Positions 4,594 through 58,333 of a stretch of 64,000 bases of DNA are shown here, in pieces. The stretch is from Candidatus Tayloriibacteriota bacterium. Its GTDB lineage: Bacteria; Patescibacteriota; Minisyncoccia; Phycocordibacterales; PALSA-1337. Position 1 is the stretch's first letter, and each line of letters opens with the position of its first letter. Both the position numbers and the translations under genes were made by a program. The stretch lies in contig JACRJP010000004.1 of the NCBI GenBank assembly GCA_016215455.1, positions 21,132 through 85,131 on the forward strand. Reading direction: 5' to 3'. Below the pieces are notes generated by a model, which had not been told where the DNA came from, searched no databases, and was given only the letters and a program-made list of their open reading frames with translations.

Positions 4594-5136
4594 CTAGTGA
4601 ACTACTCCCAGGAGATTGAAAACCTCATAGCCCTCGTGATGCACTCTCGTATTGCCATGCTGGAGCAAAGCGATTGCGAGGAATGCTCGTGCGCGCCGGA
4701 TGAAGTCGTTGGGGTTACTTGCGCAAATCTCCACTTCGAGCTGAACTAAGTCAGCGGCTTTCTCCAGTGTCTCGCAGAAACGATCTGCGTTCGGCGCTGA
4801 TGTTGTCGGGACACGGAAGTAGAGAATTCCGCCAATCACGATGATCGCAATGAATGGGATCGACAGGCCGATAAGCCCATACTTTTCCAGGGCCATGACC
4901 GACAGGTCACCTTTCAGTATCACGAGCAGAAGAAGGAGAAGAGATGCGATGATCATTCTGATTCCGATTCTCGAGCGGCAGCGGTTTTCTTTTTCCTGTG
5001 CCATGATCGTCAATCGAGCTTCCTCGATCGGGTTCACGCCAAAGCGCTTCGTGAAAGAACTTACCCAGCCTGATGGCAGGATACCTTGGTCATGTAACTG
5101 GACCAAGCGACAGAGAGCGAGAGGGCGAGTGTTCAT
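4594..5136 (-). CDS. Hypothetical membrane protein encoded in a GC-rich insert between uvrA and uvrC. The start is uncertain.
   Basis: The minus-strand ORF has a hydrophobic stretch MIIASLLLLLLVILKG...IPFIAIIVIGGILYF. The segment 4600-5130 is visibly GC-richer than its flanks. I preferred the start at the Met of MNTRPL (5136) because the longer ORF runs into the uvrC start. Confidence 0.35.
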   Translation of the reverse strand: MNTRPLALCRLVQLHDQGILPSGWVSSFTKRFGVNPIEEARLTIMAQEKENRCRSRIGIRMIIASLLLLLLVILKGDLSVMALEKYGLIGLSIPFIAIIVIGGILYFRVPTTSAPNADRFCETLEKAADLVQLEVEICASNPNDFIRRARAFLAIALLQHGNTRVHHEGYEVFNLLGVVH

Positions 5137-7568: not shown

Positions 7569-8225
7569 ATGAATATTGAAAACGGAATAAATGCAAAAGA
7601 GCAACTAAATCCGGTTTCAATAGAAGAACCTACCTATATTTATAAAAGAAGTGGAGAAACCCTTACTGTTACTCCCGAAGATGAAAAAAGATATAGTGAA
7701 GCAGTTACTGCATTTATTGCAGCCAAGAATCAATTTGAAAACGACAGAGAAAGTAGTGTAATTATTGAAGAATACGTTGAAAAGTTTTGGCGAAGTGCTT
7801 ATGAGAATCTTCCTGAGATACCAGCAGGATATGTGCGTCTTTTACATCATACATTTAGTTCAAGTCAGGCAGAAGGAATCCGTCAAAATGGATTAAGATA
7901 CGGGGGAACCACTATGGGTAGTTATAGTTATCTTAATAAGATTGCATACACCGCTAATATTGTGCGAGATATGAATGAAAGGGATGAAAGCGGAAATCGT
8001 ATTTTGTATAACAGTCGTGTAGAGACCCAGAAAGAAGGGGTTGTTGTGATTTTCGATCTTCCAGAAGAAGATTTGAAGAAATATGAATATAACAATGGAG
8101 CACCTGGTGTGATCCCAGCTGAATTTTTTGTAGCTGCTTTACCAGAAAGAACACCTATTGTTTGGATTAACTACGAAAAAAGAATTTTTGCCCCGTTATC
8201 GCAAAGATTTAATGAGAAACTGTGA
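7569..8225 (+). CDS. Hypothetical protein. It is the only gene inside the tRNA-Cys-flanked insert.
   Basis: The ORF begins MNIENGINAKEQ. The track ORF 7482..8225 starts inside the tRNA, so I trimmed it to the first Met after the tRNA. The sequence is AT-rich and K/E-rich, with no recognisable domain. Confidence 0.5.
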   Translation: MNIENGINAKEQLNPVSIEEPTYIYKRSGETLTVTPEDEKRYSEAVTAFIAAKNQFENDRESSVIIEEYVEKFWRSAYENLPEIPAGYVRLLHHTFSSSQAEGIRQNGLRYGGTTMGSYSYLNKIAYTANIVRDMNERDESGNRILYNSRVETQKEGVVVIFDLPEEDLKKYEYNNGAPGVIPAEFFVAALPERTPIVWINYEKRIFAPLSQRFNEKL

Positions 8226-8231
8226 TTTCTA

Positions 8232-8268
8232 GATGAGGTTGCTGGTTCGAATCCGGCAGAGTCTATAA
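8232..8268 (+). repeat. Degenerate direct repeat of the 3' half of tRNA-Cys (an att-like site).
   Basis: gatgagg..ttgctGGTTCGAATCCGGCAGagtctat aligns with tRNA positions 7505-7540. The 16 nt GGTTCGAATCCGGCAG match exactly. Both copies are followed by aaaa. Confidence 0.7.
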
Positions 8269-8314
8269 AATATCTCTCCTATACTAATCTTGGTTTTAAT
8301 GATTAAATTATAGT

Positions 8315-9403
8315 ATGAAAAAAATCATTTGGTCTGCAGTTGTTGTTATTATAATTGTGATAGGTTGGTTATTTACTAACAACAAACAGTCTAAATTAGT
8401 AACTAGTCACTCAATTAAGATTGGTGTCATAGCTCCACTTTCTGGCCCTCTAGCAGAATACGGAGAAGCATTTCAGAATGGTATCATCCTTGCGCAAGAG
8501 AAACTTAAGAATAACAAACTCCAATTTGTTTTTGAGGATAGTGCATATGACTCAGGTAAGGCAATTGCTGCTTTTAACAAGCTAAAAGATTTTGATAAGG
8601 TAAATGTGATTATCAACTGGGGTGATCCTACATCGCAAGCCATTGCACCTCTTGTGAAAACTAATTCGATTCCTTTTATCGCGGTGACAACTATTCCATC
8701 AGTTGCTGAACAAAGTCCGTATATCATCAGAACCCTAAATCGTTCAGAAGACGCGGCGGGAGCAACTTGGGAATATTTAAGGTCAAAAAACTTTAAAAAT
8801 GTTGGTATTGTAAAGCTTGAAACACCGTATTTTAATAGTCTTGTAGATTCGCTTATCAAGACAAAACAAACTGACGAAAAAGTTACTATTATTGATACCT
8901 ATCTTTCATTTGGTGATAAAGATTTCAGAACATCGATTAGTAAAATAAAAAATACATCGAAGTATGATGTTATTGGTGTATTCCTTGCGGGAGGTCAAAT
9001 CAGCCAGTTTTATAAACAGGCAAGTACTCTCGAAATGAAAACTCCTACATTTGGGACGGATTTTTTTGAAAGTCAGAGTGATATTGATGCCGCAGGAACA
9101 ACTATGAATGGAGTGGTGTATGTAAACTATGATGTTTCAGATGATTTTAGAACTGAATATCAAAATAGATTCAAAAATATAAGCCAAATTGCATACGCTG
9201 GTAATGGGTACGATACTGTAATGATGCTTAATAGTATTCCAGACGCAGATAAAGATTCAGTTATTAATACTCTTAAGGCTGTAAAAGATTACTCGGGAGT
9301 AGTTGGAAAATGGAATTTACTCGAAACAACCACTGATCGCTATCTTTCATCACCGTTCCATATAAAAATTATCCAGGACGGGATAATAAAAACTCTTAAT
9401 TAA
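8315..9403 (+). CDS. ABC transporter substrate-binding protein, type-1 periplasmic binding fold, resembling Leu/Ile/Val-binding proteins.
   Basis: An N-terminal TM or signal anchor is followed by IGVIAPLSGPLAEYGEAFQNG, characteristic of the Peripla_BP_6/LivJ family. Confidence 0.7.
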   Translation: MKKIIWSAVVVIIIVIGWLFTNNKQSKLVTSHSIKIGVIAPLSGPLAEYGEAFQNGIILAQEKLKNNKLQFVFEDSAYDSGKAIAAFNKLKDFDKVNVIINWGDPTSQAIAPLVKTNSIPFIAVTTIPSVAEQSPYIIRTLNRSEDAAGATWEYLRSKNFKNVGIVKLETPYFNSLVDSLIKTKQTDEKVTIIDTYLSFGDKDFRTSISKIKNTSKYDVIGVFLAGGQISQFYKQASTLEMKTPTFGTDFFESQSDIDAAGTTMNGVVYVNYDVSDDFRTEYQNRFKNISQIAYAGNGYDTVMMLNSIPDADKDSVINTLKAVKDYSGVVGKWNLLETTTDRYLSSPFHIKIIQDGIIKTLN

Positions 9404-11440: not shown

Positions 11441-11515
11441 TTTAAATATTTTCTTTGACTTCTTTCGAGAACTGATCTAGTCTTACTATTCAGACATCCT
11501 CGACCATTACAGCAT

Positions 11516-12025
11516 ATGACGATTGACGCCAATGCTCTAGCAGACATCACCTCCAGAAGAACTACTGGAAACATCGTCGCTCATGAGGAATTCAGTATTG
11601 AGCCTTTTCTCCCAGCACGTGCCTGTGCACGTGATTGGACTGTCGTTTATGACGGAGACCTGTTACAACGTCCGACTCTCACGACAAGTTTTTCATACGG
11701 GCTTAAACTTAGAGAGCACTCCGATCCAGCTCCAGATACACGACAATTTCATTCGTGTGGGGGACTGACCCTTATGCATCTTTGGAGAAACCCACATCTC
11801 ATTCCATTGTCATGGCAGAATACAGAGATGTATGAAGAGTTCTTTTTCGATGGACTCACTCTACGTCGACAAAAGAAATCACCACGTAGAACAACTGATT
11901 TTGTGATTTCCTTGTTCTATGATCCCAGGAAAAGACGCTGGTTCTCTAGCTTAAAAATATTTGGTGCTGAACGGTATGCTGGACAGATGTCAGTCGTCCT
12001 TCCGTTACATCAAGTCACTGTTTGA
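11516..12025 (+). CDS. Hypothetical protein in a GC-rich segment.
   Basis: 169 aa ORF. Codon usage is rich in CGC, GGC and GCG, unlike the flanking genes. Confidence 0.4.
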   Translation: MTIDANALADITSRRTTGNIVAHEEFSIEPFLPARACARDWTVVYDGDLLQRPTLTTSFSYGLKLREHSDPAPDTRQFHSCGGLTLMHLWRNPHLIPLSWQNTEMYEEFFFDGLTLRRQKKSPRRTTDFVISLFYDPRKRRWFSSLKIFGAERYAGQMSVVLPLHQVTV

Positions 12026-12128
12026 TTTTTATTATTTCGAATTCAGTAGACACCTTGACTACGTAGTATATTCTGTGTTAATTTCACAAATAGACCGTTA
12101 CTCACATTCACCAAAAAAGAAGCTACGC

Positions 12129-12905
12129 ATGGCAAAAACGAAAGAATCAGGACGGCTTAGGAAAGAACGGGTCGTCTGGAAGGCACACGAATTGCAAGCT
12201 GTCATCGACGCTGCGGTTCTCGCTAGCCTTGAAGACATTGAGCATGTTTGGGTCTATTTGGCTCGCGGACAGCAAGTCCTACCCAAGGAACGCCACCGTG
12301 TCATAGGTGGTAAACATGTTGTCACCCCAGAGATTCTCGCTGCTTTTCAAGTAGCTCGGAAAGCACTGATCGACAGAGAAGTGCCTGCTCCGCCGCCGCC
12401 AGTTGAGATTCCTGTGCCGGTTGAACAAAGTCGGGAACAAGTTCTTGAAAGCCTGACTGATGCCGAGCTTATCCAGCTTGCAGTGAAGCGATTTACTCCT
12501 CTCATCGAAGGCCTTCGAGCGCTCGGTGAAGTTGGAGGAAAAAAAGAAACCCCACCACCAAAGCCGGTGGTAGAATGTCCTCCCGCTGCAATCCTGACTC
12601 CGAGTCCAGCAAAACTCCCGAAGCCAACGGTAGTATTTCTGTTCGGATTCGCCCCTGATCAAGAGGTTGAGATTCGAAGGAGGGCCGGCAGTTTCAACCT
12701 GCAACTCATCTTCGCACGACAAGAAAGGGGAGATGCGCCTCCCAAGGTGCCGGTATGCAACTGGTGCATCGTTGCGGAGTCAGATCTGAGTAGGCGGGCG
12801 AGAACCGCCATTAAGGCGCGTATCGATGATGCGCATATACTTTACATTCGTAACGTGGATACGACAATGCAAAAATTGGCAGACATCAATTCTCGAACGA
12901 AATGA
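12129..12905 (+). CDS. Hypothetical protein with a Pro-rich linker, in a GC-rich segment.
   Basis: The ORF begins MAKTKESGRL and contains PAPPPPVEIPVPV and KKETPPPKP. I trimmed the track ORF 11961..12905 to the first Met after the upstream stop. Confidence 0.45.
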   Translation: MAKTKESGRLRKERVVWKAHELQAVIDAAVLASLEDIEHVWVYLARGQQVLPKERHRVIGGKHVVTPEILAAFQVARKALIDREVPAPPPPVEIPVPVEQSREQVLESLTDAELIQLAVKRFTPLIEGLRALGEVGGKKETPPPKPVVECPPAAILTPSPAKLPKPTVVFLFGFAPDQEVEIRRRAGSFNLQLIFARQERGDAPPKVPVCNWCIVAESDLSRRARTAIKARIDDAHILYIRNVDTTMQKLADINSRTK

Positions 12906-15245: not shown

Positions 15246-16643
15246 ATGCAACATTCTCAGACTCAGAACTCAGCTCCAACAATATTTGTGATATTTGGTA
15301 TCACAGGTGATCTTGCTGGACGCAAACTTCTTCCTGCGCTTCTCAATCTATATGTTAAAAAAGTACTTCCTCAGAAATTCGCTATCGTAGGATTTTCTCG
15401 TAGAAATTTTACTCGTGAAGAATTTCGTCAATATATACGTGATAATATCAATATCAAACCTGGTCAATTCAAGGAAGAAGACGTAAAGCACTTCCTTGAT
15501 CATATGTCATATGAACAGGGATTGTTTGATACACCAGAATCGTATCATCGTCTTGCCGAAAAACTTCAATCAATTGATGAGAGTTTTAAGCAATGTTCAA
15601 ATAAACTATTTCATCTCTCAGTACCACCAACACTCTACGAAGGAATTCTCGAAAACCTTTCTTCTTCAGGACTTACTATTCCATGTGGTGGTGATCTTGG
15701 TTGGACACGTGTCCTCATCGAGAAGCCTTTTGGTAATGATATCGAGACTGCTAAAAAGCTCGACAAACGTATCGGTGATCTTTTCTCAGAAGAACAGATA
15801 TTTCGTATTGATCACTATCTCGCAAAAGAGGCATTACAAAATGTTCTCGCATTTCGTTTTGCTAATACACTTTTTGAGCCACTCTGGAATCGTCATCATG
15901 TTGATAAGGTACACATTAAACTTCTCGAAAAGATTGATATTGAAGATCGTGGTGAATTCTATGACAAAGTTGGTGCCCTCAAAGATGTTGGACAAAACCA
16001 TGTACTTCAAATGCTTGCACTTGTTGCCATGGAATCACCAGAAGAATTTGATGCTGAACATATTCGTAAGGAACGAGCAAAAGTTTTGAAACATCTCATG
16101 CCGATCACATCAAAAAATATTAATGATCTTGCGGTACGTGGACAATATGAAGGGTACCTTCATGAAAAGGGAGTTCGACCAGAATCACAAACAGAAACAT
16201 ATTTCCGCCTTGAAACATATATTGAAAATGCTCGCTGGAAAGATGTTCCATTCTTTCTTGAAAGTGGAAAAGCATTGTCTGAGTCAAAAGCTGAAATTGA
16301 TATCTATTTTAAAAATGAGAATGAGGAAGAACGTCAAAATATTCTCACATTCCGTATTCAACCTGATGAGGGTATCAAGATTCGTTTTTGGGTCAAAACT
16401 CCAGGTTTTGGTCTTCAGGTAGAACCGAAAACTCTTAAATTTAAATATAGTGATTTTGATTCACTCTCAACACTTCCTGATGCATATGAAAAAGTCCTCT
16501 TCGATGCATTCGTCGGAGATCAAACACTTTTCACAAGTACTGATGAGGTAGTACACGCCTGGAAGTTCATTTCTCCAATCGTAGAACTCTGGAATCACGT
16601 ACCAATGACACGCTACAAGAAGGGAAGCTCATACGTGTATTAA
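15246..16643 (+). CDS. zwf: Glucose-6-phosphate 1-dehydrogenase.
   Basis: GITGDLAGRKLLPAL, RIDHYLAKE, and the substrate-binding motif region. Confidence 0.92.
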   Translation: MQHSQTQNSAPTIFVIFGITGDLAGRKLLPALLNLYVKKVLPQKFAIVGFSRRNFTREEFRQYIRDNINIKPGQFKEEDVKHFLDHMSYEQGLFDTPESYHRLAEKLQSIDESFKQCSNKLFHLSVPPTLYEGILENLSSSGLTIPCGGDLGWTRVLIEKPFGNDIETAKKLDKRIGDLFSEEQIFRIDHYLAKEALQNVLAFRFANTLFEPLWNRHHVDKVHIKLLEKIDIEDRGEFYDKVGALKDVGQNHVLQMLALVAMESPEEFDAEHIRKERAKVLKHLMPITSKNINDLAVRGQYEGYLHEKGVRPESQTETYFRLETYIENARWKDVPFFLESGKALSESKAEIDIYFKNENEEERQNILTFRIQPDEGIKIRFWVKTPGFGLQVEPKTLKFKYSDFDSLSTLPDAYEKVLFDAFVGDQTLFTSTDEVVHAWKFISPIVELWNHVPMTRYKKGSSYVY

Positions 16644-16682
16644 AGGTCTCAACAGAGAGGTATTTTGTCGTTTTACCATATA

Positions 16683-16711
16683 TTGACATTATGTGTTTTT
16701 TGGTATATAAT
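16683..16711 (+). promoter_or_regulatory. Consensus sigma70 promoter for the GC-rich gene at 16844.
   Basis: TTGACA (16683-88), 17 bp spacer, TATAAT (16706-11). A leader of about 130 nt follows. It contains a 16-codon uORF (16750-16800) and a perfect 8 bp hairpin CACACGCA-tgt-TGCGTGTG (16778-16796). Confidence 0.6.
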
Positions 16712-16843
16712 GTATATCAGCAAACTGGTATTACCGAAAGGTAACCAACATGACTCTTTTGAAACCTTGGACTACTACACACGCATGTTGCGTGTGGTAA
16801 GCCTTGGTGAGTTTCGAGTCAGATAAGCACATCGAAGTTACCT

Positions 16844-17653
16844 ATGAAGACGCCTAAAACGTCCCCGCGCAAACGCTCCGTCACGCCTGCACCTCCGACT
16901 AACGGGACACGCTCCCGTGGCGACATTGAATCGGTTCTGAAACAAACGGGCGATAAGAAGCCTGTGGCAAAGAAGAAGGCTGCGAAGTCTTCTACTGCCA
17001 CTGAGGTCCCGCCTCCGCCTTTCAGCCGGGAGACGGCACCACATGCCGTCACTGCCGAAGCCCGGAAGTGGCTCAGCAACGAGCGGGCAATTTACGGGGC
17101 TGGTTATGCTCCGATTCTCTGGGTCAGCGCCCCGAAATTGTGGGATCTCGCTGAGACCTTGGGTCGCGAACTCACGTTGGATGAGGTCAAATTCCTCGTC
17201 CAGGCAGATGGGGATATGGAGCAGTGCTTCATCGGAAAGGCTCCTTTCCAGCCGATTCGCTACTTGGTGATCACGCGAGTGACCCTGGATCTGCTGAAAA
17301 AAGCAGGAGCATTCGAAAAAATCCCCAAAGAAAAACTTCTCTGGGGCGGCGCGTTCGCCATCAATCAGGAAGGGAATGGTCTCATTCCCCTGTCTGGTGC
17401 GCGCTTCTGGAACGTGCGTGGTGACTTTGCGCTCAAGGATAGCGCGATGGTGCGTGCCTGGCTTATTTCGAACGAAAATCCTGCTCTGCGTTCATGGCCC
17501 CAGAGTCGGGCCGATGCAGAAGAAGGTATTCGGCGGATTGCCGATGCCAAGGCACGAGCCCGGCACACCCACGAGAACTTGGTTCAGGTGGACATCGTGC
17601 TTGCTGGGGCGATCCGTAGTCGTCCCAAGCATAAGCATGGCAATAAGAAGTAG
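16844..17653 (+). CDS. Hypothetical protein encoded in a strongly GC-rich segment of about 60% GC. It has a basic K/P-rich N-terminal tail.
   Basis: I counted 36 G+C in the first 60 nt. The N-terminus reads MKTPKTSPRKRSVTPAPPTNGTRSRGD...KKPVAKKKAAKSS, and a globular domain follows. Confidence 0.6.
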   Translation: MKTPKTSPRKRSVTPAPPTNGTRSRGDIESVLKQTGDKKPVAKKKAAKSSTATEVPPPPFSRETAPHAVTAEARKWLSNERAIYGAGYAPILWVSAPKLWDLAETLGRELTLDEVKFLVQADGDMEQCFIGKAPFQPIRYLVITRVTLDLLKKAGAFEKIPKEKLLWGGAFAINQEGNGLIPLSGARFWNVRGDFALKDSAMVRAWLISNENPALRSWPQSRADAEEGIRRIADAKARARHTHENLVQVDIVLAGAIRSRPKHKHGNKK

Positions 17654-17692
17654 CTGAGCATCTACAGAAAAATAAAGAAGATCTGCTCTCAA

Positions 17693-17726
17693 GCTCCCCG
17701 CATACAACTGCTGGGAGCCTTTTATT
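17693..17726 (+). terminator. Terminator-like hairpin.
   Basis: Stem GCTCCC/GGGAGC, followed by CTTTTATTT. Confidence 0.45.
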
Positions 17727-17784
17727 TATATGCTATACTGTCGCCATAATAATTAAGAAATCGCGTAAACCGCAAACAATTACG

Positions 17785-18012
17785 ATGTTCAAGAATTTTT
17801 TAATGAAACAAATGCTCAAGCGCCAGATGAAGGGCGTTCCTGAAGCTGAACAAGAAAAAATCTTCAAAATGATTGAAGATAATCCTGATTTCTTTACTAA
17901 AATTGCCGAAGAAACTCAAGAAAAAATCAAAGGGGGTATGAGTCAGCAAGACGCTATGATGGCAGTAATGCAAAAAAATCAAGACCAGCTTAAGAAGATT
18001 TTAGGGAAATAA
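17785..18012 (+). CDS. Small K/E/Q-rich hypothetical protein.
   Basis: 75 aa with host-like low-GC codon usage. A TATACT -10 element lies upstream. Confidence 0.4.
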   Translation: MFKNFLMKQMLKRQMKGVPEAEQEKIFKMIEDNPDFFTKIAEETQEKIKGGMSQQDAMMAVMQKNQDQLKKILGK

Positions 18013-19172: not shown

Positions 19173-19189
19173 AGGTTATAAAATACCTC
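19173..19189. terminator. Bidirectional hairpin between convergent genes.
   Basis: GAGGT-tataaaat-ACCTC. Confidence 0.4.
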
Positions 19190-19706
19190 AACAAGTTTGC
19201 GCAGGAACAGTAGCACCACCAAGACTTCTGAAGATCTCCGTCGCATCATACGCAGCATCCGAACCAATGAGTCGCATAACAGCAACGGCAAGGTTCTCTA
19301 TTCGTTGGGGTGAGACATCAATCGGCTCAATACGTAAATGTGCCTTTTGAGTGGCGATGTTGAATTTATGACCGTGGAGCACTAAGTCGAATGTGACTAC
19401 TCTCATCCGACCACGATGCTTAACACAGAAAAAACCATCGATTCCGTAGTCTCTATCAAGCACGGTATTGACCGCACAATAGATATCGAGATGTCTTTGA
19501 ACCAATTTTCGAACTTCCGCATGAACACTGTCTCGAATACCACCTTTTCGATAGTGGCGATTGCCACGACGATGTAAGATGATCACTTCTGAGAGAGCTT
19601 CTTCAAATGTCATACTCCCGACAGGTATGCCTCGATGGTATTCCCAGCAAAGAGACTTACCGAAGAATTCTCGTTCGAATAAACGGCCTCGTTCAGGTCT
19701 ATTCAT
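19188..19706 (-). CDS. Hypothetical protein in a GC-richer islet.
   Basis: 172 aa ORF. I tested the Thg1 and metallophosphoesterase motifs and neither fits. Confidence 0.45.
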   Translation of the reverse strand: MNRPERGRLFEREFFGKSLCWEYHRGIPVGSMTFEEALSEVIILHRRGNRHYRKGGIRDSVHAEVRKLVQRHLDIYCAVNTVLDRDYGIDGFFCVKHRGRMRVVTFDLVLHGHKFNIATQKAHLRIEPIDVSPQRIENLAVAVMRLIGSDAAYDATEIFRSLGGATVPAQTC

Positions 19707-19878
19707 GGTACACTTTTTTCATTGAAAAGGGTTCTTTCGAAACGCCGAAAGAATACTACCCAGATCTAAATACTTTATACATTAAATACATAGGCATGTC
19801 AATTTTTATTAGTCCACGTTTGACATTTCATCAACGAACCTTATAGTAACCATAGCTGATCAAACACTGGAGGATGCA

Positions 19879-20211: not shown

Positions 20212-20739
20212 CTACTGTCGGTGACGCAGAATTTCTGCCAAACTTCCCAGTGAACCAGGACCTTCGAGAGTGATTCGAACGACATGAGCACCTGCGGGAA
20301 CCTCATCTTTGTCAGAATTGATCCAGACCACCTGAAAGTCTTCACGCACCCCAATTTGAGGTTTTGTCAGGATCTCAGGGAACTGAAGTCGCACCGCTGC
20401 CCAGAAGACTTGCTTGAGAAGATCGGCGTGAGCTGAGTCCCTTTCAAACGTCTGGAGATCAAGGGTCATCTCAGCATGAAAAGCTGCACAATCATGCTTC
20501 TTCACTTCTGCGGTTTCATGAAGAGCTTGATGAGCCTCCTGTTTAATGCGGAGATTATTGGCCTGCACTTCGAGTGAGTTTCTGGCCTCAACGAATAGGT
20601 GCCAGAGCCGTTTGTTGGTATCGTTGAGCTTACCCACCACGGTCTCGCCTTCGCCAACTTTGGTGGTGCTCGCCTTAATCTTGACGATATGAACACTTGT
20701 GATGAGTTCAATAAGGTCGAGCAGTTCTTCGGTGTTCAT
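20212..20739 (-). CDS. Hypothetical protein in a GC-richer islet.
   Basis: 175 aa ORF with no recognisable motifs. Confidence 0.45.
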   Translation of the reverse strand: MNTEELLDLIELITSVHIVKIKASTTKVGEGETVVGKLNDTNKRLWHLFVEARNSLEVQANNLRIKQEAHQALHETAEVKKHDCAAFHAEMTLDLQTFERDSAHADLLKQVFWAAVRLQFPEILTKPQIGVREDFQVVWINSDKDEVPAGAHVVRITLEGPGSLGSLAEILRHRQ

Positions 20740-20901: not shown

Positions 20902-23900
20902 ATGAATCCTTACGACCACTCATACGTCGAAAAGAAATGGCAAAAAGAATGGGCCAAGAAGAAAATTTACACCACTAAAGAAAAGGGAAAGAAGTTCTAT
21001 GTTCTCGACATGTTTCCATATCCTTCAGGAGAAGGTCTCCATGTTGGACACCCAAAGGGATACATTGCAACTGATGTCATTTCTCGTATGAAGCGTATGC
21101 AGGGTCATAATGTTCTTCATCCTATGGGCTTTGATGCTTTCGGTCTTCCTGCAGAGAACTACGCAATCAAGATGAAAACAAACCCGATGATCTCGGTTGC
21201 AGAAAACATTGAACGATACAAACAACAACTCGAAATTCTCGGTTTTGACTATGATTGGTCACGCGAGATCAATACAACTGATCCAAAATACTATAAATGG
21301 ACACAATGGATTTTCAAAAAACTTCACGAAAAGGGGTTGGCATATGAATCATATGAACCTATCAACTGGTGTCCTTTTGATAAGACAGGGTTGGCAAATG
21401 AGGATGTTGAAGATGGTCGTTGTGAACGTTGTGGCACACTTGTAGAGAAAAAACCTCTTCGTCAGTGGGTACTTCGTATTACAGACTACGCAGAGCGTCT
21501 TCTTGCTGATCTTGATGCAAAAGATGTAAATGGTACACCTCTCCTTGATTGGCCAGAATCAATCAAAGAGGCTCAAAGAAATTGGATAGGTAAGAGCGAA
21601 GGTGCAGAAATTGAATTCGCTATCGATATACACGGTGAACCTTCTACGGAAAAGATAAAGGTATTTACCACTCGACCCGACACACTGTTCGGTGTCACCT
21701 ATGTCGTACTCGCTCCTGAACATGCTTTTGTTCAAAAACTCATTGAACAATCTCCAAACAAACAATCACTTCTCGATTACATCACTGCGACTAAAAACAC
21801 TTCACAGATTGATCGTACGGATGCTAAAAAAGAAAAAACTGGTGTTGAAATTACAGGAGTATCTGCAATTAATCCTGCAAACGGTACAAAAGTTCCTGTT
21901 TGGATCGCTGACTATGTGCTTGCTGACTACGGTACAGGTGCGGTCATGGCCGTCCCAGCGCATGACGAACGTGATTGGGTCTTTGCGAAAAAATACAATC
22001 TTCCCATCATCGATGTTGTAACACCGATCGAAGGAGAACCTCATGCTGGTTCAGAATTCCGTAAAACAATCTCAGCGATTGTACACCGAAAGAGTGATAA
22101 TAAATTTCTTGCTCTCAAATGGAAGAAGTTCGGTTGGACATCAGTACCAGTTGGAGGTATAGAAGGGGATGAATCACCTGAAATAACAGCAGAACGTGAG
22201 GTTCTTGAAGAGACTGGATATGTCACAAAAGCTGTACGCACACTCGGTGGTACAGTAGAGTCACATTTCTTTGCTGAGAATAAGAATGTTTGGCGAGCAC
22301 GAGTTGATCAACCAGTTCTTCTTGAACTTGTTGATGAAAATAAAAAAGAAGTTGCTGTCGATGAACTTGAAAAGCATGAATGTGTTTGGCTCACCTCTGA
22401 AGAACTTCTCAAACAAATTACTCATCGTTACAATGCAATTGGTCTTGAACGCTTTATAGCCAAGAATGATGCATACACCGAAGCTGGCAAACTCATCAAT
22501 TCAGGAAAATTTGATGGTCTACGATCAGAAGAAGCAAAGAAAAAGATTACAACCGCAGTTGGAGGAAATTGGGTTACAAAATATAAACTTCGTGACTGGG
22601 TTTTCTCACGCCAACGATATTGGGGTGAACCGTTCCCGATTATTCACTGTGAGAAACATGGTGTTGTCCTTGTTCCTGAAAAAGAATTACCTGTCGAGCT
22701 TCCAAAAGTTGAATCATACGAACCAACAGGTACCGGTGAATCACCTCTTGCTGGTATTTCAGAATGGGTGAATACAAAGTGTCCTCAGTGTATTGCTGAT
22801 AAAAAGAAACCACACTATCTCATCTTTGATTTTGATGGAGTTCTTGGTGATACATGGACTGCAACACTTAAAGCAAAAGTATTGATGGGAGATAGCAAAA
22901 CAGAAGAAGAGGCTCAACAGGCAATCCTCGAATATTTTGATAAAAAACCATTTCACGCAAAAAACGTCCCTATTACACAAGAGAAATCGAACGCCGCGAC
23001 TAAATGGAGCAGAGACTTTGGAGAAAAAATGGCAACGATTGATTTTGATCTCTTCCATGAATTCATCAAAGAAATCAAAAAATATAAGAAAGTAAAAATT
23101 GCTGTAGTTTCATCAGGATCACGCCAATATGTGATCAAAGCAATGAAAAAATCAGGTCTCAAACCGACCCATATTCTCGCATTCGAAGATAGTCACTCAA
23201 AAGAAGAGAAGATCGAGCGTATTTGTAAGGACTGGAAAGTGGATGTAAAGGATATATATTACTTCACCGATACAAAAGCTGATGTCTACGAGCTTGAAGA
23301 TCTACTTGATCGAAACAAACTCATTGGTTGTGCTTGGGGTTATCAAGGTTTTACAAAACTCAATGAAGTTCTTCCTGATAAACAGATTCTCAAAGACTTC
23401 GCTGATATTCATCGCATTCTTAATATAGAATGTTCAGGGAAGCGCGAAACAAATACCATGCCACAATGGGCAGGTTCATCATGGTATCACCTCCGCTATA
23501 TGGATCCTACGAACAAAAAAGTACTCGTCGATCCTAAAAAAGAGAAATTCTGGAACTCTGTTGATCTCTACGTAGGTGGAGCTGAACATGCAACACGACA
23601 CCTTATCTACGCTCGTTTTTGGCACAAATTCTTATATGATATCGGGGTAGTATCGACAATTGAACCATTCTCAAAACTTCAATCCGTTGGTCTCATCATG
23701 GCAGAAGATGGTCGTAAGATGTCAAAACGTTTCGGTAATGTTGTAAATCCCGATGAAATTGTTCGTATCTACGGAGCCGATACATTGCGTCTCTATGAAA
23801 TGTTCATGGGTCCATTTGATCAAGCGATTAGTTGGAGTACCGATAGTATGGTTGGCTCACGAAGATTCATTGAGCGTGTATGGAAGATGGGCCACAAAGT

Positions 23901-24405
23901 ACTTACACAACCTCTATCACAAAAAGATGGTTCAACACTGACTCCAAGTGCTCGCACCGCACTTCATAAAGCAATTAAAAAGGTAGGAGAAGATATTGAA
24001 GACTTCCGTTTCAACACAGCAATCAGTACACTCATGATTACCTTGAATGAACTTGAAAAGGAAGCGATCGTGTCTCGTTCAGATTTTGAAGTATTTCTTA
24101 AATTAGCAGCTCCGTTCATACCACACGTTGCAGAAGAATTATGGAATGAATTAGGTAATAAGAAATCAATTCATCTCTCTGAATGGCCAACACACAATCC
24201 TGAATATCTTGTAGAAGCGGAAATAAAGATTGTCGTTCAAATAAATGGAAAGGTTCGAGCAACATTCACAACGGAAAAGGGAACAAGCGACGAAACCCTT
24301 CAAGAGACTGCTTTAAACCTCCCAGAGACCAAAAAATGGCTCAATGGTGGAACCCCTAAAAAAGTCATTATTATCAAAGAAAAGCTCGTAAATATCGTAA
24401 TATAG
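20902..24405 (+). CDS. leuS: Leucine--tRNA ligase with two inserted domains, one Nudix-like and one HAD-like.
   Basis: HVGH (HIGH) and KMSKR (KMSKS) are present. The editing domain shows TTRPDTLFG...VPAHDERD. At 1167 aa it is far longer than the roughly 820-880 aa of a typical bacterial LeuRS. The two inserts lie at aa ~375-525 and ~636-848. Confidence 0.97.
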   Translation: MNPYDHSYVEKKWQKEWAKKKIYTTKEKGKKFYVLDMFPYPSGEGLHVGHPKGYIATDVISRMKRMQGHNVLHPMGFDAFGLPAENYAIKMKTNPMISVAENIERYKQQLEILGFDYDWSREINTTDPKYYKWTQWIFKKLHEKGLAYESYEPINWCPFDKTGLANEDVEDGRCERCGTLVEKKPLRQWVLRITDYAERLLADLDAKDVNGTPLLDWPESIKEAQRNWIGKSEGAEIEFAIDIHGEPSTEKIKVFTTRPDTLFGVTYVVLAPEHAFVQKLIEQSPNKQSLLDYITATKNTSQIDRTDAKKEKTGVEITGVSAINPANGTKVPVWIADYVLADYGTGAVMAVPAHDERDWVFAKKYNLPIIDVVTPIEGEPHAGSEFRKTISAIVHRKSDNKFLALKWKKFGWTSVPVGGIEGDESPEITAEREVLEETGYVTKAVRTLGGTVESHFFAENKNVWRARVDQPVLLELVDENKKEVAVDELEKHECVWLTSEELLKQITHRYNAIGLERFIAKNDAYTEAGKLINSGKFDGLRSEEAKKKITTAVGGNWVTKYKLRDWVFSRQRYWGEPFPIIHCEKHGVVLVPEKELPVELPKVESYEPTGTGESPLAGISEWVNTKCPQCIADKKKPHYLIFDFDGVLGDTWTATLKAKVLMGDSKTEEEAQQAILEYFDKKPFHAKNVPITQEKSNAATKWSRDFGEKMATIDFDLFHEFIKEIKKYKKVKIAVVSSGSRQYVIKAMKKSGLKPTHILAFEDSHSKEEKIERICKDWKVDVKDIYYFTDTKADVYELEDLLDRNKLIGCAWGYQGFTKLNEVLPDKQILKDFADIHRILNIECSGKRETNTMPQWAGSSWYHLRYMDPTNKKVLVDPKKEKFWNSVDLYVGGAEHATRHLIYARFWHKFLYDIGVVSTIEPFSKLQSVGLIMAEDGRKMSKRFGNVVNPDEIVRIYGADTLRLYEMFMGPFDQAISWSTDSMVGSRRFIERVWKMGHKVLTQPLSQKDGSTLTPSARTALHKAIKKVGEDIEDFRFNTAISTLMITLNELEKEAIVSRSDFEVFLKLAAPFIPHVAEELWNELGNKKSIHLSEWPTHNPEYLVEAEIKIVVQINGKVRATFTTEKGTSDETLQETALNLPETKKWLNGGTPKKVIIIKEKLVNIVI

Positions 24406-24424: not shown

Positions 24425-24453
24425 TTGACAAGAAACTCAGGGTACGGTATAGT
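24425..24453 (+). promoter_or_regulatory. Sigma70-like promoter.
   Basis: TTGACA, 17 bp spacer, TATAGT, upstream of 24484. Confidence 0.5.
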
Positions 24454-24483: not shown

Positions 24484-25533
24484 ATGGCCCCAATCACGTT
24501 TAAACCAAAGCAAACAACAAAGCGTCTTCTCGCAGTTCTTCCTGAACGAGCACGAGACGTACTTGTACATCGCTATGGTTTAGGCAAAAGTGATGAACGA
24601 ATGACTCTTGATGCGATTGGAAAGCTCTATGGTATCACTCGTGAACGTGTTCGACAGATCGAAAATTACGCAATTAATAATATTCGAAAATCAGACGCAT
24701 ATAAGTCTGAGAAGTCTGCATTCGCTGAACTCGAAGAAGTACTTCATTCTCTTGGAGGAATTATCGTTGAAGATGATCTCTTTGCACATCTTTCAAAGGA
24801 TATAGCAACTCAAAATCATATTCACTTCCTCCTTGTTCTTGGTGAATCATTTAAGAAACGAAAAGAAGATGGTGAATTTAAGCATCGATGGCATGTAAGC
24901 GACGAACTCGCTAAAAAGGTTGAAGATTCTCTCCGTAAACTCTATGAAGGACTTGGTGACCAAGATCTTCTTCCAGAATCAGAGATTGTTAATGCTTTCC
25001 TTGATCACGTTAAGGAACTTTCTGAGAAATACAAGAACCAAGAAATTCTCAAGCGATGGTTGTCACTTTCAAAGCGTGTAGGTAAGAACCCTATGGGAGA
25101 TTGGGGAGTTTCTCACTCATCAAACATCAAGACTAAGGGTATGCGTGACTATGCATTCCTTATCATCCGAAAGCATGGTTCTCCGATCCACTTCCGTGAA
25201 GTAGCAAAAAATATCGAAAAGATATTTAAGAAAAAGGCTCACGTAGCAACATGTCACAACGAACTCATCAAGGATCCTCGATTCGTTCTTGTTGGACGAG
25301 GTCTCTATGCTCTTGCTGAATGGGGATACATGAGTGGTGTCGTTAAAGATGTTATTAAGAAGATTCTTGATAAGAATGGTCCTCTTACAAAAGATGAGAT
25401 CATCGATAAAGTTCTCAAAGAACGTTACGTAAAGGAAAACACCATCATGGTAAACCTCCAGAATCAGAGATTCTTCAAAAAAGACAAAGAGGGACGTTAC
25501 TCAATCATCGAGACAGCACAAATCGAAAAGTAA
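24484..25533 (+). CDS. Protein with an N-terminal sigma-70 region-4-like HTH and an unknown C-terminal domain.
   Basis: RARDVLVHRYGL...TLDAIGKLYGITRERVRQIENYAINNIRK resembles RpoD region 4. Confidence 0.6.
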   Translation: MAPITFKPKQTTKRLLAVLPERARDVLVHRYGLGKSDERMTLDAIGKLYGITRERVRQIENYAINNIRKSDAYKSEKSAFAELEEVLHSLGGIIVEDDLFAHLSKDIATQNHIHFLLVLGESFKKRKEDGEFKHRWHVSDELAKKVEDSLRKLYEGLGDQDLLPESEIVNAFLDHVKELSEKYKNQEILKRWLSLSKRVGKNPMGDWGVSHSSNIKTKGMRDYAFLIIRKHGSPIHFREVAKNIEKIFKKKAHVATCHNELIKDPRFVLVGRGLYALAEWGYMSGVVKDVIKKILDKNGPLTKDEIIDKVLKERYVKENTIMVNLQNQRFFKKDKEGRYSIIETAQIEK

Positions 25534-33128: not shown

Positions 33129-33542
33129 TCAAGCATTCCACTCAAGATCAAGACGAGACTCGGGAGGAGGATGCCGAAACCGCCTATCCTTCTGTTGTAG
33201 ACGAAGGCCAATTACGTCAATGATGTCAGACGGGGTATAGTTCAACAAAATTGCTACCGGAATGACCTTTGGAAACATAGCGGCATACAGCTTATTAAAC
33301 TTCCTTACACCCCATGGAGAAGACTTGATCTGCAGTGGTATTTCACCAAAAGGTGTATTGAGCCAAATATCTGTTTTTAAATCCATGTCATCTCTTAGAC
33401 TACCTTTTCGAGCACCCAAAAGCCAAAAAGGTTTGTCGGGGGATGTCATCGTATCCATTAAGGCAGCAAGAGCTCTTCGTTCGGTTTCTTCACCAATCCG
33501 CAAACTTTCAAGATCATCGGCTTCAAAAGAAAAATCGGCCAT
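33129..33542 (-). CDS. Hypothetical protein.
   Basis: 137 aa ORF on the minus strand. Confidence 0.4.
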   Translation of the reverse strand: MADFSFEADDLESLRIGEETERRALAALMDTMTSPDKPFWLLGARKGSLRDDMDLKTDIWLNTPFGEIPLQIKSSPWGVRKFNKLYAAMFPKVIPVAILLNYTPSDIIDVIGLRLQQKDRRFRHPPPESRLDLEWNA

Positions 33543-57718: not shown

Positions 57719-58333
57719 TCAAAACAAAGGTTCAACCATTCGACTTCTTCTCTTGGGTTTTTTCGGCTCCTTCGGAAGGTCTTTCTTGAGGATACCGAAC
57801 CTCTCGATGGTTCTCATGAAGAACGAGTCTTCACCTGGCGCAAACGGCTTGTTAATGCGAACCTTATCGGAAGTCTCGAGGATTGATTCTGCTTCAGGCC
57901 GCAGCGGAGCAATACCGAGCATACAGGCGCCCCAATACTGAAAATGAGGACAACGAATCTGGAATGTGGTGCAACCCTTGTCTCCACACCAATACACAGT
58001 AGGTCGTGCAACAACAGAGTGCACAAGAATTCCTTGAGCATCATGAGGTGTAACGAATTCCTGAAACGCCATCACCACGAGTTGTGGTGAACCGTCTTCC
58101 CATGTTCCAAGATACCGAGTGATGTCTGGAAATATCAGAGGTGCCAAATGATAGTGGATCGAAAGCTCGATATCTTTCGCCCCGTTATGCTCCTCAAAAT
58201 ACTTCGGGCGAAGCTTTTTGGGTAATTGATCAAATCTCCAATTGGGATATATAGCCTGCTTCTGTGTCAGCCACTCAGGGTAAGTGAAGAATGGAAATCT
58301 ACACACCAACGGAGGATATTTTGTGGACGGCAT
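57719..58333 (-). CDS. Hypothetical Cys-containing protein in a GC-richer segment.
   Basis: 204 aa ORF with CGDKGC...C and no recognised domain. Confidence 0.45.
   Translation of the reverse strand: MPSTKYPPLVCRFPFFTYPEWLTQKQAIYPNWRFDQLPKKLRPKYFEEHNGAKDIELSIHYHLAPLIFPDITRYLGTWEDGSPQLVVMAFQEFVTPHDAQGILVHSVVARPTVYWCGDKGCTTFQIRCPHFQYWGACMLGIAPLRPEAESILETSDKVRINKPFAPGEDSFFMRTIERFGILKKDLPKEPKKPKRRSRMVEPLF

What the first reader, a model, noticed from the sequence alone, without database searches (positions are those of the whole stretch)
16650..17700. A 60%-GC foreign gene behind a perfect-consensus sigma70 promoter and a structured leader with a uORF
Gene 16844-17653 has about 60% GC against about 40% for its neighbours zwf and ychF. 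I counted 36 G+C in the first 60 nt. It encodes a protein with a histone-H1-like basic K/P/A-rich tail followed by a globular domain of unknown function. It is driven by TTGACA-17 bp-TATAAT at 16683-16711, a perfect consensus that is rare for native genes. Its leader of about 130 nt contains a 16-codon uORF (MTLLKPWTTTHACCVW, 16750-16800) whose end overlaps a perfect 8 bp hairpin CACACGCA-tgt-TGCGTGTG (16778-16796). An apparent terminator hairpin follows the gene at 17693-17726. The whole unit looks like a self-contained, recently acquired expression cassette, possibly regulated by attenuation.
Basis: seen in the sequence. Interest (0 to 1): 0.6.

Follow-up and report, generated by a model that had tools for sequence, protein, structure and literature searches.

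The report
Self-contained GC-rich orphan gene cassette
A single gene with its own very strong promoter, structured leader and terminator sits between two housekeeping genes of an ultra-small (Patescibacteria/CPR) bacterium. It belongs to an undescribed, fast-changing protein family that keeps about 55% GC and an unusually folded mRNA whatever genome it sits in, so it is not simply a recent foreign import.

Summary
ORF 16844-17653 (269 aa) has 56.9% GC and GC3 0.62, against GC3 0.23-0.35 in neighbours and ribosomal-protein genes. It lies behind the only perfect TTGACA-17-TATAAT in 64 kb and ends in a hairpin plus U-run terminator. The same locus occurs in two independent assemblies, so it is not a chimera.

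The "recent foreign gene with attenuation" reading is only partly right. The protein belongs to an undescribed Patescibacteria family: at least 70 clusters, no Pfam, PDB or fold match, AF2 pLDDT 86.6. Nearly every member is the same kind of cassette, with a TTGACA promoter, long leader and terminator.

Family GC3 stays at 0.43-0.69 in hosts of 34-60% GC. It is below host GC3 in a GC-rich host, and it holds at syntenic positions where housekeeping neighbours are 45-77% identical. Family mRNAs fold more stably than synonymous shuffles (mean z -3.15, controls about -1).

Two strain pairs show mosaic hyperdivergence inside near-identical flanks. Three lineages carry VirB2-like pilin arrays 3-4 kb downstream.

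The uORF is not conserved and the leader hairpin lacks a U-tract. Protein function is unknown; I infer nucleic-acid binding with low confidence.

The parts
16683..16711 (+). sigma70-type promoter TTGACA-17-TATAAT (perfect consensus)
   Evidence: scores it 12/12. One search shows it is the only perfect match in the window. Family members elsewhere carry TTGACA-16/17-TAnnnT, often with TGC just before the -10 element.
16718..16843 (+). 5' leader of about 126 nt. The TSS is inferred from the -10 position and has not been mapped.
   Evidence: Folding z = -2.3 against dinucleotide shuffles. It aligns with the leaders of L021, L032, L033 and L043, with a central hairpin that keeps pairing through two-sided changes. 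A covariance model built from these sequences hits only these leaders. There is no Rfam match.
16731..16744 (+). 5'-proximal hairpin TTACC-GAAA-GGTAA with a GNRA loop. Its 3' arm can pair instead with 16837-16843, just upstream of the start codon.
   Evidence: Read from the sequence. The MFE structure pairs 16739-16745 with 16837-16843. A role as a switch is inferred only.
16750..16800 (+). 16-codon uORF (MTLLKPWTTTHACCVW), probably incidental
   Evidence: Present. It is not conserved in homologous leaders; only L032 has an ATG uORF.
16751..16821 (+). long leader stem (16751-16756 with 16816-16821) capped by the perfect 8-bp hairpin 16778-16785/16789-16796
   Evidence: MFE and centroid structures. 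No U-run follows the hairpin, so it is not an intrinsic terminator.
16844..17653 (+). CDS of 269 aa, a member of an undescribed Patescibacteria protein family. It has a disordered basic N-tail (1 to about 60), a conserved alpha/beta core (about 60-220; invariant D122 G123 C128 Q136 P137 G169 G185), a long C-terminal helix (222-258) and a basic tail.
   Evidence: No family, sequence or fold match. mRNA folding z = -3.1 to -4.1 against synonymous shuffles.
16853..16981 (+). hyperdivergent segment between two strains that are otherwise 99% identical (N-tail coding region)
   Evidence: One search shows 15 substitutions plus in-frame indels of 6, 9 and 12 nt here. There are no differences in 16982-17694.
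17693..17729 (+). intrinsic terminator: GCTCCC...GGGAGC hairpin followed by CTTTTATTTAT
   Evidence: In strain L001 the stem and loop carry 8 substitutions and a 3-nt deletion, but the sequence can still be read as a GC-rich hairpin followed by the U-run; this was not folded.

Best explanation
The region is an autonomous, monocistronic expression cassette. It was inserted between the zwf stop codon and the promoter of the conserved p75-ychF pair in a Patescibacteria (Parcubacteria/Paceibacteria-like) chromosome.

It encodes a member of a previously undescribed, Patescibacteria-restricted protein family. The protein has a conserved core whose predicted fold matches nothing solved, and variable disordered tails. 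In this allele both tails are basic (pI 10.1).

The cassette design is inherited with the gene family. It consists of a consensus -35 and strong -10 promoter, a long structured 5' leader, a GC-rich self-complementary coding region, and a strong intrinsic terminator.

The high GC is not a leftover of recent import from a GC-rich donor. The family holds about 50-60% GC (GC3 about 0.45-0.69) whatever the host composition. I attribute this mainly to selection on the transcript for a compactly folded and presumably long-lived mRNA. Exchange of divergent alleles by homologous recombination between related populations probably adds to it.

Shown here: composition, cassette anatomy, insertion at this site, family membership, absence of known homologues, excess predicted mRNA structure, and mosaic divergence.

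Inferred: high transcription, mRNA stabilisation by the 5' hairpin, CDS structure and terminator, possible masking of the SD-less start by the 16739-16745/16837-16843 helix, and nucleic-acid binding by the protein.
For: **Anatomy and composition:**

**Insertion at this site:** relatives keep zwf-p75-ychF without the gene.

**Real locus:** it occurs in two further independent assemblies.

**Family:**
- 70 hits among 1.84 billion representatives, at 25-42% identity.
- Conserved motif LVQxDGx4Cx6FQPV[RK]Y.
- AF2 pLDDT 86.6, with the core above 90.
- One member is annotated as a hypothetical protein of a Patescibacteria group bacterium.

**Cassette is a family trait:** TTGACA promoter, 60-170 nt leader and terminator occur in nearly all loci.

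**Host-independent composition:**
- Gene GC exceeds flank GC in 18 of 19 non-redundant loci.
- In L041 the host core GC3 is 0.80-0.89 and the family gene is 0.63.
- At the orthologous L32/NusB position, L041 and L025 have NusB and L32 at 77% identity and the family protein at 34%, with family GC3 of 0.63 and 0.69.
- In the murD-murC neighbourhood, MurC/MurD are 45-59% identical and the family protein 33-46%. Family GC3 is 0.46-0.60, against 0.25-0.40 for host neighbours.

**mRNA structure:**
- Under a block-restricted synonymous shuffle, family mean z is -3.15 (n=19).
- 24 window genes give -0.91 (Mann-Whitney p=1.5e-4).
- The ten control genes from family loci that are not island neighbours, six of them identifiable housekeeping genes, give about -1.0.
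- The sense strand is more structured than the antisense (p=0.026).

**Mosaic alleles:** L028 against L030 is 95-100% identical through the flank, promoter, leader and first few tens of nt of the CDS, then 42-72%. W against L001 differs in the N-tail and the terminator only.
Against: - There are no expression data. The TSS, transcript level and half-life are all inferred.
- Folding z-scores are computational. Four of 19 members have z between -1 and +0.1 (L015, L022, L040, L041). L041, the one case in a GC-rich host, is among the weakest.
- Positional conservation of predicted pairs across the family is only modest: 278 shared pairs against 116-221 in shuffles. No single conserved RNA fold is shown.
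- Allele import from an unknown reservoir of about 55% GC could explain the composition without any selection on RNA.
- The codon usage is the worst in the window for this host, and the start codon lacks a Shine-Dalgarno sequence. Both sit badly with a simple 'make a lot of protein' reading.
- Unknown genes next to the family gene in L041 and L042 also have strongly negative z. The property may belong to a class of accessory genes rather than to this family.
- Protein function is not established by any test.
Confidence: 0.5

Rival explanations
1. This is plain recent horizontal acquisition. The gene arrived recently from a donor of about 60% GC, brought its own promoter, and has not yet ameliorated.
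For: - GC3 is 0.62 against about 0.28 in the host, and rare-codon load is 13.4 per 100 codons.
- It is absent from the zwf|p75 gap in all 12 related loci.
- Only one close homologue (95%) exists among 5.8 billion proteins.
Against: - The same offset is seen in 18 of 19 non-redundant family loci, and it is reversed in a GC-rich host.
- The offset is retained at syntenic positions whose housekeeping neighbours are only 45-77% identical. Synonymous sites should have equilibrated over that distance.
- No family member was found in a context of matching GC. There are no integrase, transposase, target-site duplication or terminal inverted repeats.
- The leader is homologous to those of copies resident in AT-rich hosts.
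Confidence: 0.2
2. The protein is a hypervariable host-interaction or T4SS-associated protein of an episymbiont. It would be exported or used with the VirB2-like pilin/T4SS apparatus and evolve under diversifying selection, which drives allele replacement.
For: - VirB2-like (PF18895) pilin arrays lie 3-4 kb downstream, in the same relative orientation, in three lineages: L041, L042 and L034/L025.
- Such arrays are widespread in Patescibacteria and essential for epibiotic growth in one cultured strain (PMC12102498).
- Alleles are mosaic and hyperdivergent within near-identical flanks.
- At one orthologous site the family protein is 34% identical while neighbours are 77%.
- C-terminal tails are positively charged in the sequences read in full. 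My own knowledge is that VirB/D4 substrates often carry such tails.
Against: - No pilin or T4SS genes lie near the gene in the window or in most other loci.
- There is no signal peptide and no homology to any effector.
- Linkage at 3-4 kb with unrelated genes in between may be plain synteny.
- This reading does not explain the base composition or the mRNA structure.
Confidence: 0.15
3. The gene is under leader-peptide (uORF) transcription attenuation. Translation of the 16-codon uORF would control formation of the 8-bp hairpin and hence read-through into the gene.
For: The uORF 16750-16800 overlaps the hairpin 16778-16796, and an AAGG lies 9-12 nt upstream of its ATG.
Against: - The hairpin is followed by GUAAGCCUUGG, not a U-run, so it is not an intrinsic terminator.
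- The uORF has no run of regulatory codons.
- Of the four other A4 leader sequences (L021, L032, L033, L043), only L032 has an ATG uORF. The nucleotides are conserved as stem elements instead.
- The two strains have identical leaders, so they give no test.
Confidence: 0.05
4. The transcript itself is the main functional product, or a co-equal one: a structured RNA that also codes. For example, the basic-tailed protein might bind or package its own mRNA, or the mRNA might act as a scaffold.
For: - GC of about 50-60% independent of genome GC in both directions is what rRNA and tRNA genes do (my own knowledge). The pattern is shown here.
- Excess folding is stronger on the sense strand.
- The promoter is very strong, yet codon usage is the worst in the window and this allele has no SD.
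- Several members lie directly downstream of tRNA-Lys(CTT) and tRNA-Leu(TAG) genes.
Against: - The protein is clearly conserved and folds confidently.
- There is no strongly position-conserved RNA structure and no Rfam hit.
- Alleles diverge fast at synonymous sites too.
Confidence: 0.08
5. The region is an assembly chimera or contaminant.
For: Only the sharp GC step at both gene borders.
Against: - The identical arrangement occurs in two other independent assemblies from different runs, with continuous 99-100% identity across both junctions.
- The promoter and terminator are AT-rich like the host. The downstream p75 -10 region appears, by my reading, to match the intergenic sequence in L003.
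Confidence: 0.01

Closest known systems
Phage 'morons' (autonomous extra transcription units described in lambdoid phages by Hendrix and colleagues; cited from my own knowledge)
   Same: A single gene with its own sigma70 promoter and factor-independent terminator is inserted between two genes that are adjacent in relatives, and its base composition differs from the flanks.
   Different: The setting is a bacterial chromosome between housekeeping genes, with no prophage context. There are no IMG/VR, PHROG or BFVD relatives. The compositional offset is a stable property of the whole gene family across hosts, not a mark of a particular transfer.
Un-ameliorated horizontally transferred ORFan genes or genomic islets (Lawrence and Ochman amelioration framework; my own knowledge)
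   Same: Atypical GC3 and codon usage, patchy distribution, variable genomic location.
   Different: Composition does not drift to the host value at syntenic positions over deep divergence, and it lies below the host in a GC-rich host. There are no mobility genes or insertion scars.
Stable-RNA genes (rRNA, tRNA), whose GC is largely independent of genomic GC, and long-lived mRNAs protected by 5' stem-loops and 3' terminator hairpins such as ompA-type leaders (my own knowledge)
   Same: GC of about 50-60% in hosts of 34-60% GC, excess predicted structure, a 5'-proximal GNRA hairpin, a strong terminator hairpin, and adjacency to tRNA genes in several lineages.
   Different: It encodes a conserved protein. 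No single conserved RNA fold was demonstrated, and stability has not been measured.
Basic-tailed nucleoid proteins (chlamydial Hc1, mycobacterial HupB/Hlp tails, histone H1)
   Same: In this allele the N-tail is K/P/A/T/S-rich and basic (pI 10.8), the C-tail is basic, and overall pI is 10.1.
   Different: There is no sequence or fold homology. The charge of the N-tail is not conserved in the family, being acidic in P0004/L043.
Leader-peptide attenuators (trp/his type)
   Same: A short uORF overlaps a stable leader hairpin.
   Different: There is no U-tract terminator, no regulatory codon run, and the uORF is not conserved.

Membership tests
Phage moron / autonomous transcription unit | Own sigma70-type promoter immediately upstream | tested here: met
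   Perfect TTGACA-17-TATAAT at 16683-16711. This is sequence-level evidence only; no TSS has been mapped.
Phage moron / autonomous transcription unit | Own factor-independent terminator immediately downstream | tested here: met
   Hairpin 17693-17718 followed by a U-run.
Phage moron / autonomous transcription unit | Inserted between genes that are adjacent in relatives, with different base composition | tested here: met
   In L003, zwf is followed by p75 after 70 nt. GC is 0.569 against 0.38-0.41 in the neighbours.
Phage moron / autonomous transcription unit | Resides in a phage or prophage genome | tested here: not met
   The flanks are zwf, ABC/FtsX, ychF and LeuRS. There are no PHROG hits and no relatives in IMG/VR or BFVD.
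Recent un-ameliorated horizontal transfer | Atypical composition and codon usage relative to the host | tested here: met
   GC3 is 0.62 against 0.23-0.35. Rare codons are 13.4 per 100 against 0-4.3 in housekeeping genes.
Recent un-ameliorated horizontal transfer | Homologues found in a donor lineage of matching composition | tested here: not met
   In 18 of 19 non-redundant loci the gene is GC-richer than its flanks, and in the GC-rich host L041 it is GC-poorer. No matched context was found.
Recent un-ameliorated horizontal transfer | Absent from sister genomes | tested here: inconclusive
   It is absent from the zwf|p75 gap of 12 related loci.
Recent un-ameliorated horizontal transfer | Mobility hallmarks (integrase or transposase, target-site duplication, terminal repeats) | tested here: not met
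   No flanking repeats. Neighbours in the long loci are housekeeping or unknown genes.
Leader-peptide transcription attenuator | Leader hairpin followed by a U-tract (intrinsic terminator) | tested here: not met
   16778-16796 is followed by GTAAGCCTTGG. It was not called by the terminator scan.
Leader-peptide transcription attenuator | uORF conserved in homologous leaders | tested here: not met
   Of the other A4 leaders (L021, L032, L033, L043), only L032 has an ATG uORF.
Known cis-regulatory or structured RNA family (Rfam 15) | Covariance-model match at or near the gathering score | tested here: not met
   Only tRNA-Ala was found in the window. The best hit in 16600-17800 scores 23.6 bits against a gathering score of 80.
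Histone-like / H1-like nucleoid protein | Homology to the H1, Hc1 or HU fold or domain | tested here: not met
Histone-like / H1-like nucleoid protein | Basic Lys/Ala/Pro-rich tail conserved in the family | tested here: not met
   The tail is basic here (pI 10.8) but acidic in P0004/L043 and neutral in others.
T4SS-associated protein or substrate | Genetic linkage to T4SS or VirB2-like pilin genes | tested here: inconclusive
   Pilin arrays lie 3-4 kb downstream in L041, L042 and L034. None lies near the gene in the window or in the other loci.
T4SS-associated protein or substrate | Translocation by the T4SS | not testable with these tools
   Requires experiment.
Diversity-generating retroelement target | Adenine-specific substitutions in the variable region | tested here: not met
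   Substitutions in 16853-16981 are of all types, and there are in-frame indels. A nearby reverse transcriptase was not searched for specifically; none is annotated in ±10 kb.

The most novel reading that the evidence does not exclude
This is a protein-coding gene family whose transcript behaves like a stable structural RNA. Its GC is fixed near 55% in genomes from 34% to 60% GC, and its mRNA carries selected, sense-biased self-complementarity. It has a consensus promoter, a structured leader and a terminator, yet host-discordant codons. On this reading the folded mRNA is itself functional, for example bound or packaged by its own basic-tailed protein, or acting as a scaffold. It would operate in a hypervariable module linked to the VirB2-pilin/T4SS apparatus through which CPR episymbionts deal with their hosts.
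Probability: 0.12. Interest if true: 0.85.

Novelty: new variant of a known kind. Interest (0 to 1): 0.6.

Why it matters
Patescibacteria make up a large share of bacterial diversity. They have tiny genomes, and almost nothing is known about their lineage-specific genes.

This is a family with no detectable relative in Pfam, PDB or the structure libraries that could be searched. It is packaged as an expression-optimised single-gene unit and changes alleles rapidly inside otherwise identical genomes. In several lineages it sits next to the pilin arrays known to be essential for epibiotic growth.

It also gives a clean counter-example to the standard inference that atypical GC means recent horizontal transfer. 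Here the atypical composition is held at syntenic positions over deep divergence and in both directions, which points to selection on the nucleic acid itself.

Both points can be tested directly with metatranscriptomes and with the few cultivable CPR systems.

Tried and rejected
**Searches that found nothing**
- Pfam, PHROGs, NCBIfam and PADLOC on the protein gave no hit.
- Pfam and PHROGs on 50 family members gave no Pfam hit and one stray PHROG hit at E=0.003.
- A profile search against PDB sequences gave nothing at E up to 10.
- IMG/VR was scanned with two sub-family profiles and one family DNA pattern, with no relatives.
- Rfam at gathering and E-value thresholds found nothing in the region.
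- A search for direct or inverted repeats at the cassette edges found no target-site duplication or terminal repeats.
- A co-occurrence search of the window's other orphan ORFs in family loci found only an unrelated conserved gene.
- Two literature searches for highly expressed or GC-rich CPR unknowns found nothing on this family.

**Searches limited by the tool**
- The word-indexed homologue search with the full and the core-only profile returned only 2 and 5 proteins. Its sensitivity is low for this family.

**Ideas tested and dropped**
- A covariance model of the leader recovers only its own training sequences and one identical copy (L038), so it does not extend to the other sub-families.
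- A test for one conserved mRNA fold showed only a modest excess of shared pairs. I therefore do not claim a specific conserved RNA structure.
- A DGR-type mechanism was rejected because the substitutions are not adenine-specific.
- Inversion of the terminator hairpin as the cause of its divergence was rejected by inspection.
Full report
**1. What is in the sequence**

The ORF at 16844-17653 (+, 269 aa) is real and is a sharp compositional island. In 300-nt windows GC rises from about 0.35-0.40 to 0.54-0.58 and falls back again. No other 1-kb bin of the 64-kb window exceeds 0.50.

GC3 is 0.619. For comparison, zwf has GC3 0.255, ychF 0.275 and the ribosomal-protein genes at 38.8-42.5 kb have 0.26-0.35. 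The excess therefore comes neither from amino-acid composition nor from expression-linked codon bias.

The gene is rich in codons the host almost never uses. CGG accounts for 7 of 21 Arg codons, against 0.00 in pooled core genes. CTG accounts for 6 of 22 Leu codons against 0.01, and GCC for 11 of 33 Ala codons against 0.08. Its load of seven host-rare codons is 13.4 per 100 codons, the highest in the window. Identifiable housekeeping genes carry 0-4.3 and ribosomal-protein genes 0-1.4.

The remaining features check out as follows.
- TTGACA-17-TATAAT at 16683-16711 is a 12/12 match and the only perfect one in 64 kb.
- The uORF (16750-16800), the perfect 8-bp hairpin (16778-16785/16789-16796) and the terminator (17693-17718 plus CUUUUAUUUAU) are all present.
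- The count of 36 G+C in the first 60 nt is exact.

**2. Not an artefact, and an insertion at this site**

The same arrangement is found in two independent assemblies. L002 (SRR12113407) encodes all nine window proteins tested at 100% amino-acid identity. L001 (SRR22388193) is 99.1% nucleotide-identical over 20 kb.

Pfam hits on the neighbours confirm G6PD (zwf) upstream and YchF downstream. Twelve genomes with 60-75% identical zwf are all Patescibacteria MAGs, labelled Parcubacteria, Paceibacterota, Taylorbacteria or Minisyncoccia. Many keep zwf-p75-ychF, but none has the gene there.

In L003, zwf is followed by the 75-aa gene after 70 nt. In other lineages the gap holds unrelated genes. The unit from about 16644 to about 17729 is therefore an insertion between the zwf stop and the p75 promoter. 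No target-site duplication or terminal repeats mark its edges.

**3. The protein**

No Pfam, PHROG, NCBIfam or PADLOC family matches. A word-indexed search of 5.8 billion proteins found only the 95% identical allele in L001.

An exhaustive phmmer search of 1.84 billion representatives found 70 relatives at 25-42% identity and 133-420 aa. They share a core with invariant D122, G123, C128, Q136, P137, G169 and G185, and the motif LVQxDGx4Cx6FQPV[RK]Y. Some members have CxxC at the Cys position.

N-terminal tails are disordered and variable. They are basic here and acidic in P0004. C-terminal regions form a long helix followed by a tail that is basic in the sequences read in full.

One member is NCBI MDE2037969.1, annotated as a hypothetical protein of a Patescibacteria group bacterium. 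Many loci come from 0.1-um groundwater fractions. No relative was found in IMG/VR.

**4. The cassette is a family trait**

A family-specific DNA pattern retrieved 22 metagenome loci, about 20 of them true members by hmmsearch. Five more came from contig look-ups.

Nearly all have TTGACA, then 16-17 nt, then TAnnnT, often with TGC just before the -10 element. Two others also have both hexamers at consensus: L035 with a 17-nt spacer and L043 with a 16-nt spacer, the latter by my reading of the sequence. They then have a 60-170 nt leader and a strong hairpin plus U-run terminator.

The window's leader aligns with those of L021, L032, L033 and L043. It shares a 5' CAG, TTTTAGAGG and GAGTTTTC, and has a central hairpin in which 5 of 7 pairs keep pairing through two-sided changes. 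A covariance model built from them finds only these leaders. Other sub-families have different leaders with GNRA-capped hairpins.

In the window's MFE structure, 16739-16745 pairs with 16837-16843, the seven bases before an AUG that has no Shine-Dalgarno sequence. The same segment can instead form the 5' GAAA hairpin. This looks like start-site masking, but that is inference only.

The 8-bp hairpin lacks a U-tract. Among the other aligned leaders only L032 has an ATG uORF. Leader-peptide attenuation is therefore not supported.

**5. Composition is independent of the host**

In 18 of 19 non-redundant loci the family gene is GC-richer than its flanks: 0.44-0.60 against 0.34-0.52, with GC3 0.43-0.69.

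The exception is informative. In L041 the host has 59.5% GC, core genes have GC3 0.80-0.89, and the family gene has 0.63.

L041 and L025 carry the gene at an orthologous position: L32, NusB-like, then the family gene, then further downstream VirB2-like pilins. NusB and L32 are 77% identical but the family protein only 34%. Family GC3 is 0.63 and 0.69, although the hosts differ by about 0.3 in GC3.

In a second clade the gene stays in the murD-murC neighbourhood (L033, L038, L043). There MurC and MurD are 45-59% identical and the family protein 33-46%. GC3 remains 0.46-0.60 against 0.25-0.40 for neighbours.

Over such distances synonymous sites are saturated. A leftover donor signature cannot explain the offset.

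**6. The mRNAs are unusually folded**

I compared each CDS with shuffles that permute synonymous codons only within 40-codon blocks. This keeps the protein, the codon counts and the local composition.
- The 19 family CDSs have mean z = -3.15 (window gene -3.08).
- 24 window genes, including six other GC-richer orphans, have mean z = -0.91 (Mann-Whitney p = 1.5e-4).
- Whole-gene shuffles gave the same picture.
- The ten control genes from family loci that are not island neighbours, six of them identifiable housekeeping genes of 45-63% GC, give about -1.0.
- Four unknown genes adjacent to the family gene in L041 and L042 give -2.5 to -5.0.
- The antisense strand is less extreme, at -2.12 (paired test p = 0.026). 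This is as expected if part of the signal acts on the sense RNA.

Predicted pairs are only modestly conserved in position across the family: 278 shared pairs against 116-221 in ten shuffles. I therefore claim general compaction, not one conserved fold.

**7. Mosaic, hyperdivergent alleles**

Between the window and L001, differences are about 0.2-0.9% in general. They then cluster in two places. In 16853-16981 there are 15 substitutions, both synonymous and non-synonymous, plus in-frame indels of 6, 9 and 12 nt. In the terminator stem-loop, 17695-17716, there are 8 substitutions and a 3-nt deletion, and the sequence can still be read as a GC-rich hairpin, though this was not folded. There are no differences in the 713 nt between them.

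Between L028 and L030, from the same aquifer, the flank, promoter, leader and first few tens of nt of the CDS are 95-100% identical. The rest of the CDS drops abruptly to 42-72%.

Such local divergence, at synonymous sites too, cannot arise by relaxed constraint against a background of 0.3-1%. It indicates import of divergent alleles by recombination.

**8. Context**

No integrase or transposase lies nearby. Neighbours are housekeeping or unknown genes.

Several members lie directly after tRNA-Lys(CTT) and tRNA-Leu(TAG). Three lineages have arrays of PF18895 (VirB2-like) pilins 3-4 kb downstream. Such arrays are common in Patescibacteria and essential for epibiotic growth in one cultured strain (PMC12102498). 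The window has no such array near the gene.

**9. Interpretation**

'Recently acquired' and 'attenuation' are not supported.

My best reading has confidence about 0.5. This is an inherited, relocatable, expression-optimised single-gene unit of an undescribed Patescibacteria family. Its composition is held by selection on a compact, probably long-lived transcript, with help from allele exchange. The protein is probably nucleic-acid-binding (pI 10.1 with basic tails), but this is untested.

Rivals:
- plain recent HGT (0.2);
- a T4SS-linked, diversifying host-interaction protein (0.15);
- a transcript that is itself functional (0.08);
- uORF attenuation (0.05);
- chimera (0.01).

**10. Limits**

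There are no expression, stability or binding data. All RNA structure is predicted. Whole genomes of the relatives could not be scanned. AFDB was not available. Family size is a lower bound. Family members are not phylogenetically independent, although most share only about 30% amino-acid identity.

Noticed in passing
window 4594-5136 (-), 20212-20739 (-), 11976-12905 (+), 33129-33542 (-), 57719-58333 (-): Other small ORFs with no Pfam hit have raised GC3 (0.37-0.61) and a raised load of host-rare codons (6-10 per 100). Those tested (all but 33129-33542) do not show the strong mRNA-folding excess of the focal family; z ranges from -1.3 to +0.4.
   Followed up: partly
window 19774-19802 (-) and 24425-24453 (+): These are the only two other near-consensus promoters in the window (TTGACA-17-TATAAA and TTGACA-17-TATAGT). 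The first lies upstream of the 172-aa orphan at 19188-19706 (-). The second lies upstream of the Sigma70_r4/HARE-HTH gene at 24484-25533.
   Followed up: no
window 20902-24405 (+): A 1167-aa leucyl-tRNA synthetase-like protein has precomputed Pfam hits that include NUDIX and HAD_2 between the tRNA-synt_1 segments. This is an unusual inserted module.
   Followed up: no
window 16644-17784 compared with L003-L013: The zwf|p75|ychF intergenic gaps hold different, unrelated genes in different relatives: a 576-aa membrane protein in L004/L005, a 119-aa ORF in L006, a 345-aa ORF in L008 and a 365-aa ORF in L003. The site is a recurrent insertion hot spot.
   Followed up: partly
window 8000-8500 (within ORF 7569-8225) and 11500-12000: Two further local clusters of differences occur between the window and strain L001, with 12 and 7 differences per 500 nt against a background of 0-8.
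   Followed up: no
L019, L020, L025/L034, L031, L039: In five loci the family gene starts within about 170-550 nt downstream of a tRNA-Lys(CTT) and tRNA-Leu(TAG) pair. In L019 and L031 the TTGACA promoter abuts the 3' end of the tRNA, and in L020 it lies 3 nt after it.
   Followed up: partly
L041 7064-9903, L042 3777-6377, L025 206-1930: The unknown genes lying between the family gene and the VirB2-like pilin arrays also evolve fast. The L041 331-aa and L025 574-aa proteins are 32% identical where NusB is 77%. These genes also have strongly negative mRNA-folding z-scores (-2.5 to -5.0), which suggests a larger module with shared properties.
   Followed up: partly
window 17323-17346: A 10-bp intragenic hairpin (CCCCAAAGAAAAACTTCTCTGGGG) spans the codons of the conserved WGG motif. 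On the minus strand the scan calls it terminator-like.
   Followed up: no
window 60340-60948 (+) and L030 5486-6124 (-): A conserved gene of about 200 aa with the motif FFAGPVRGGDDWQ has no Pfam hit at E<=0.01. The two copies are 43% identical and GC3 is moderately raised (0.44).
   Followed up: no
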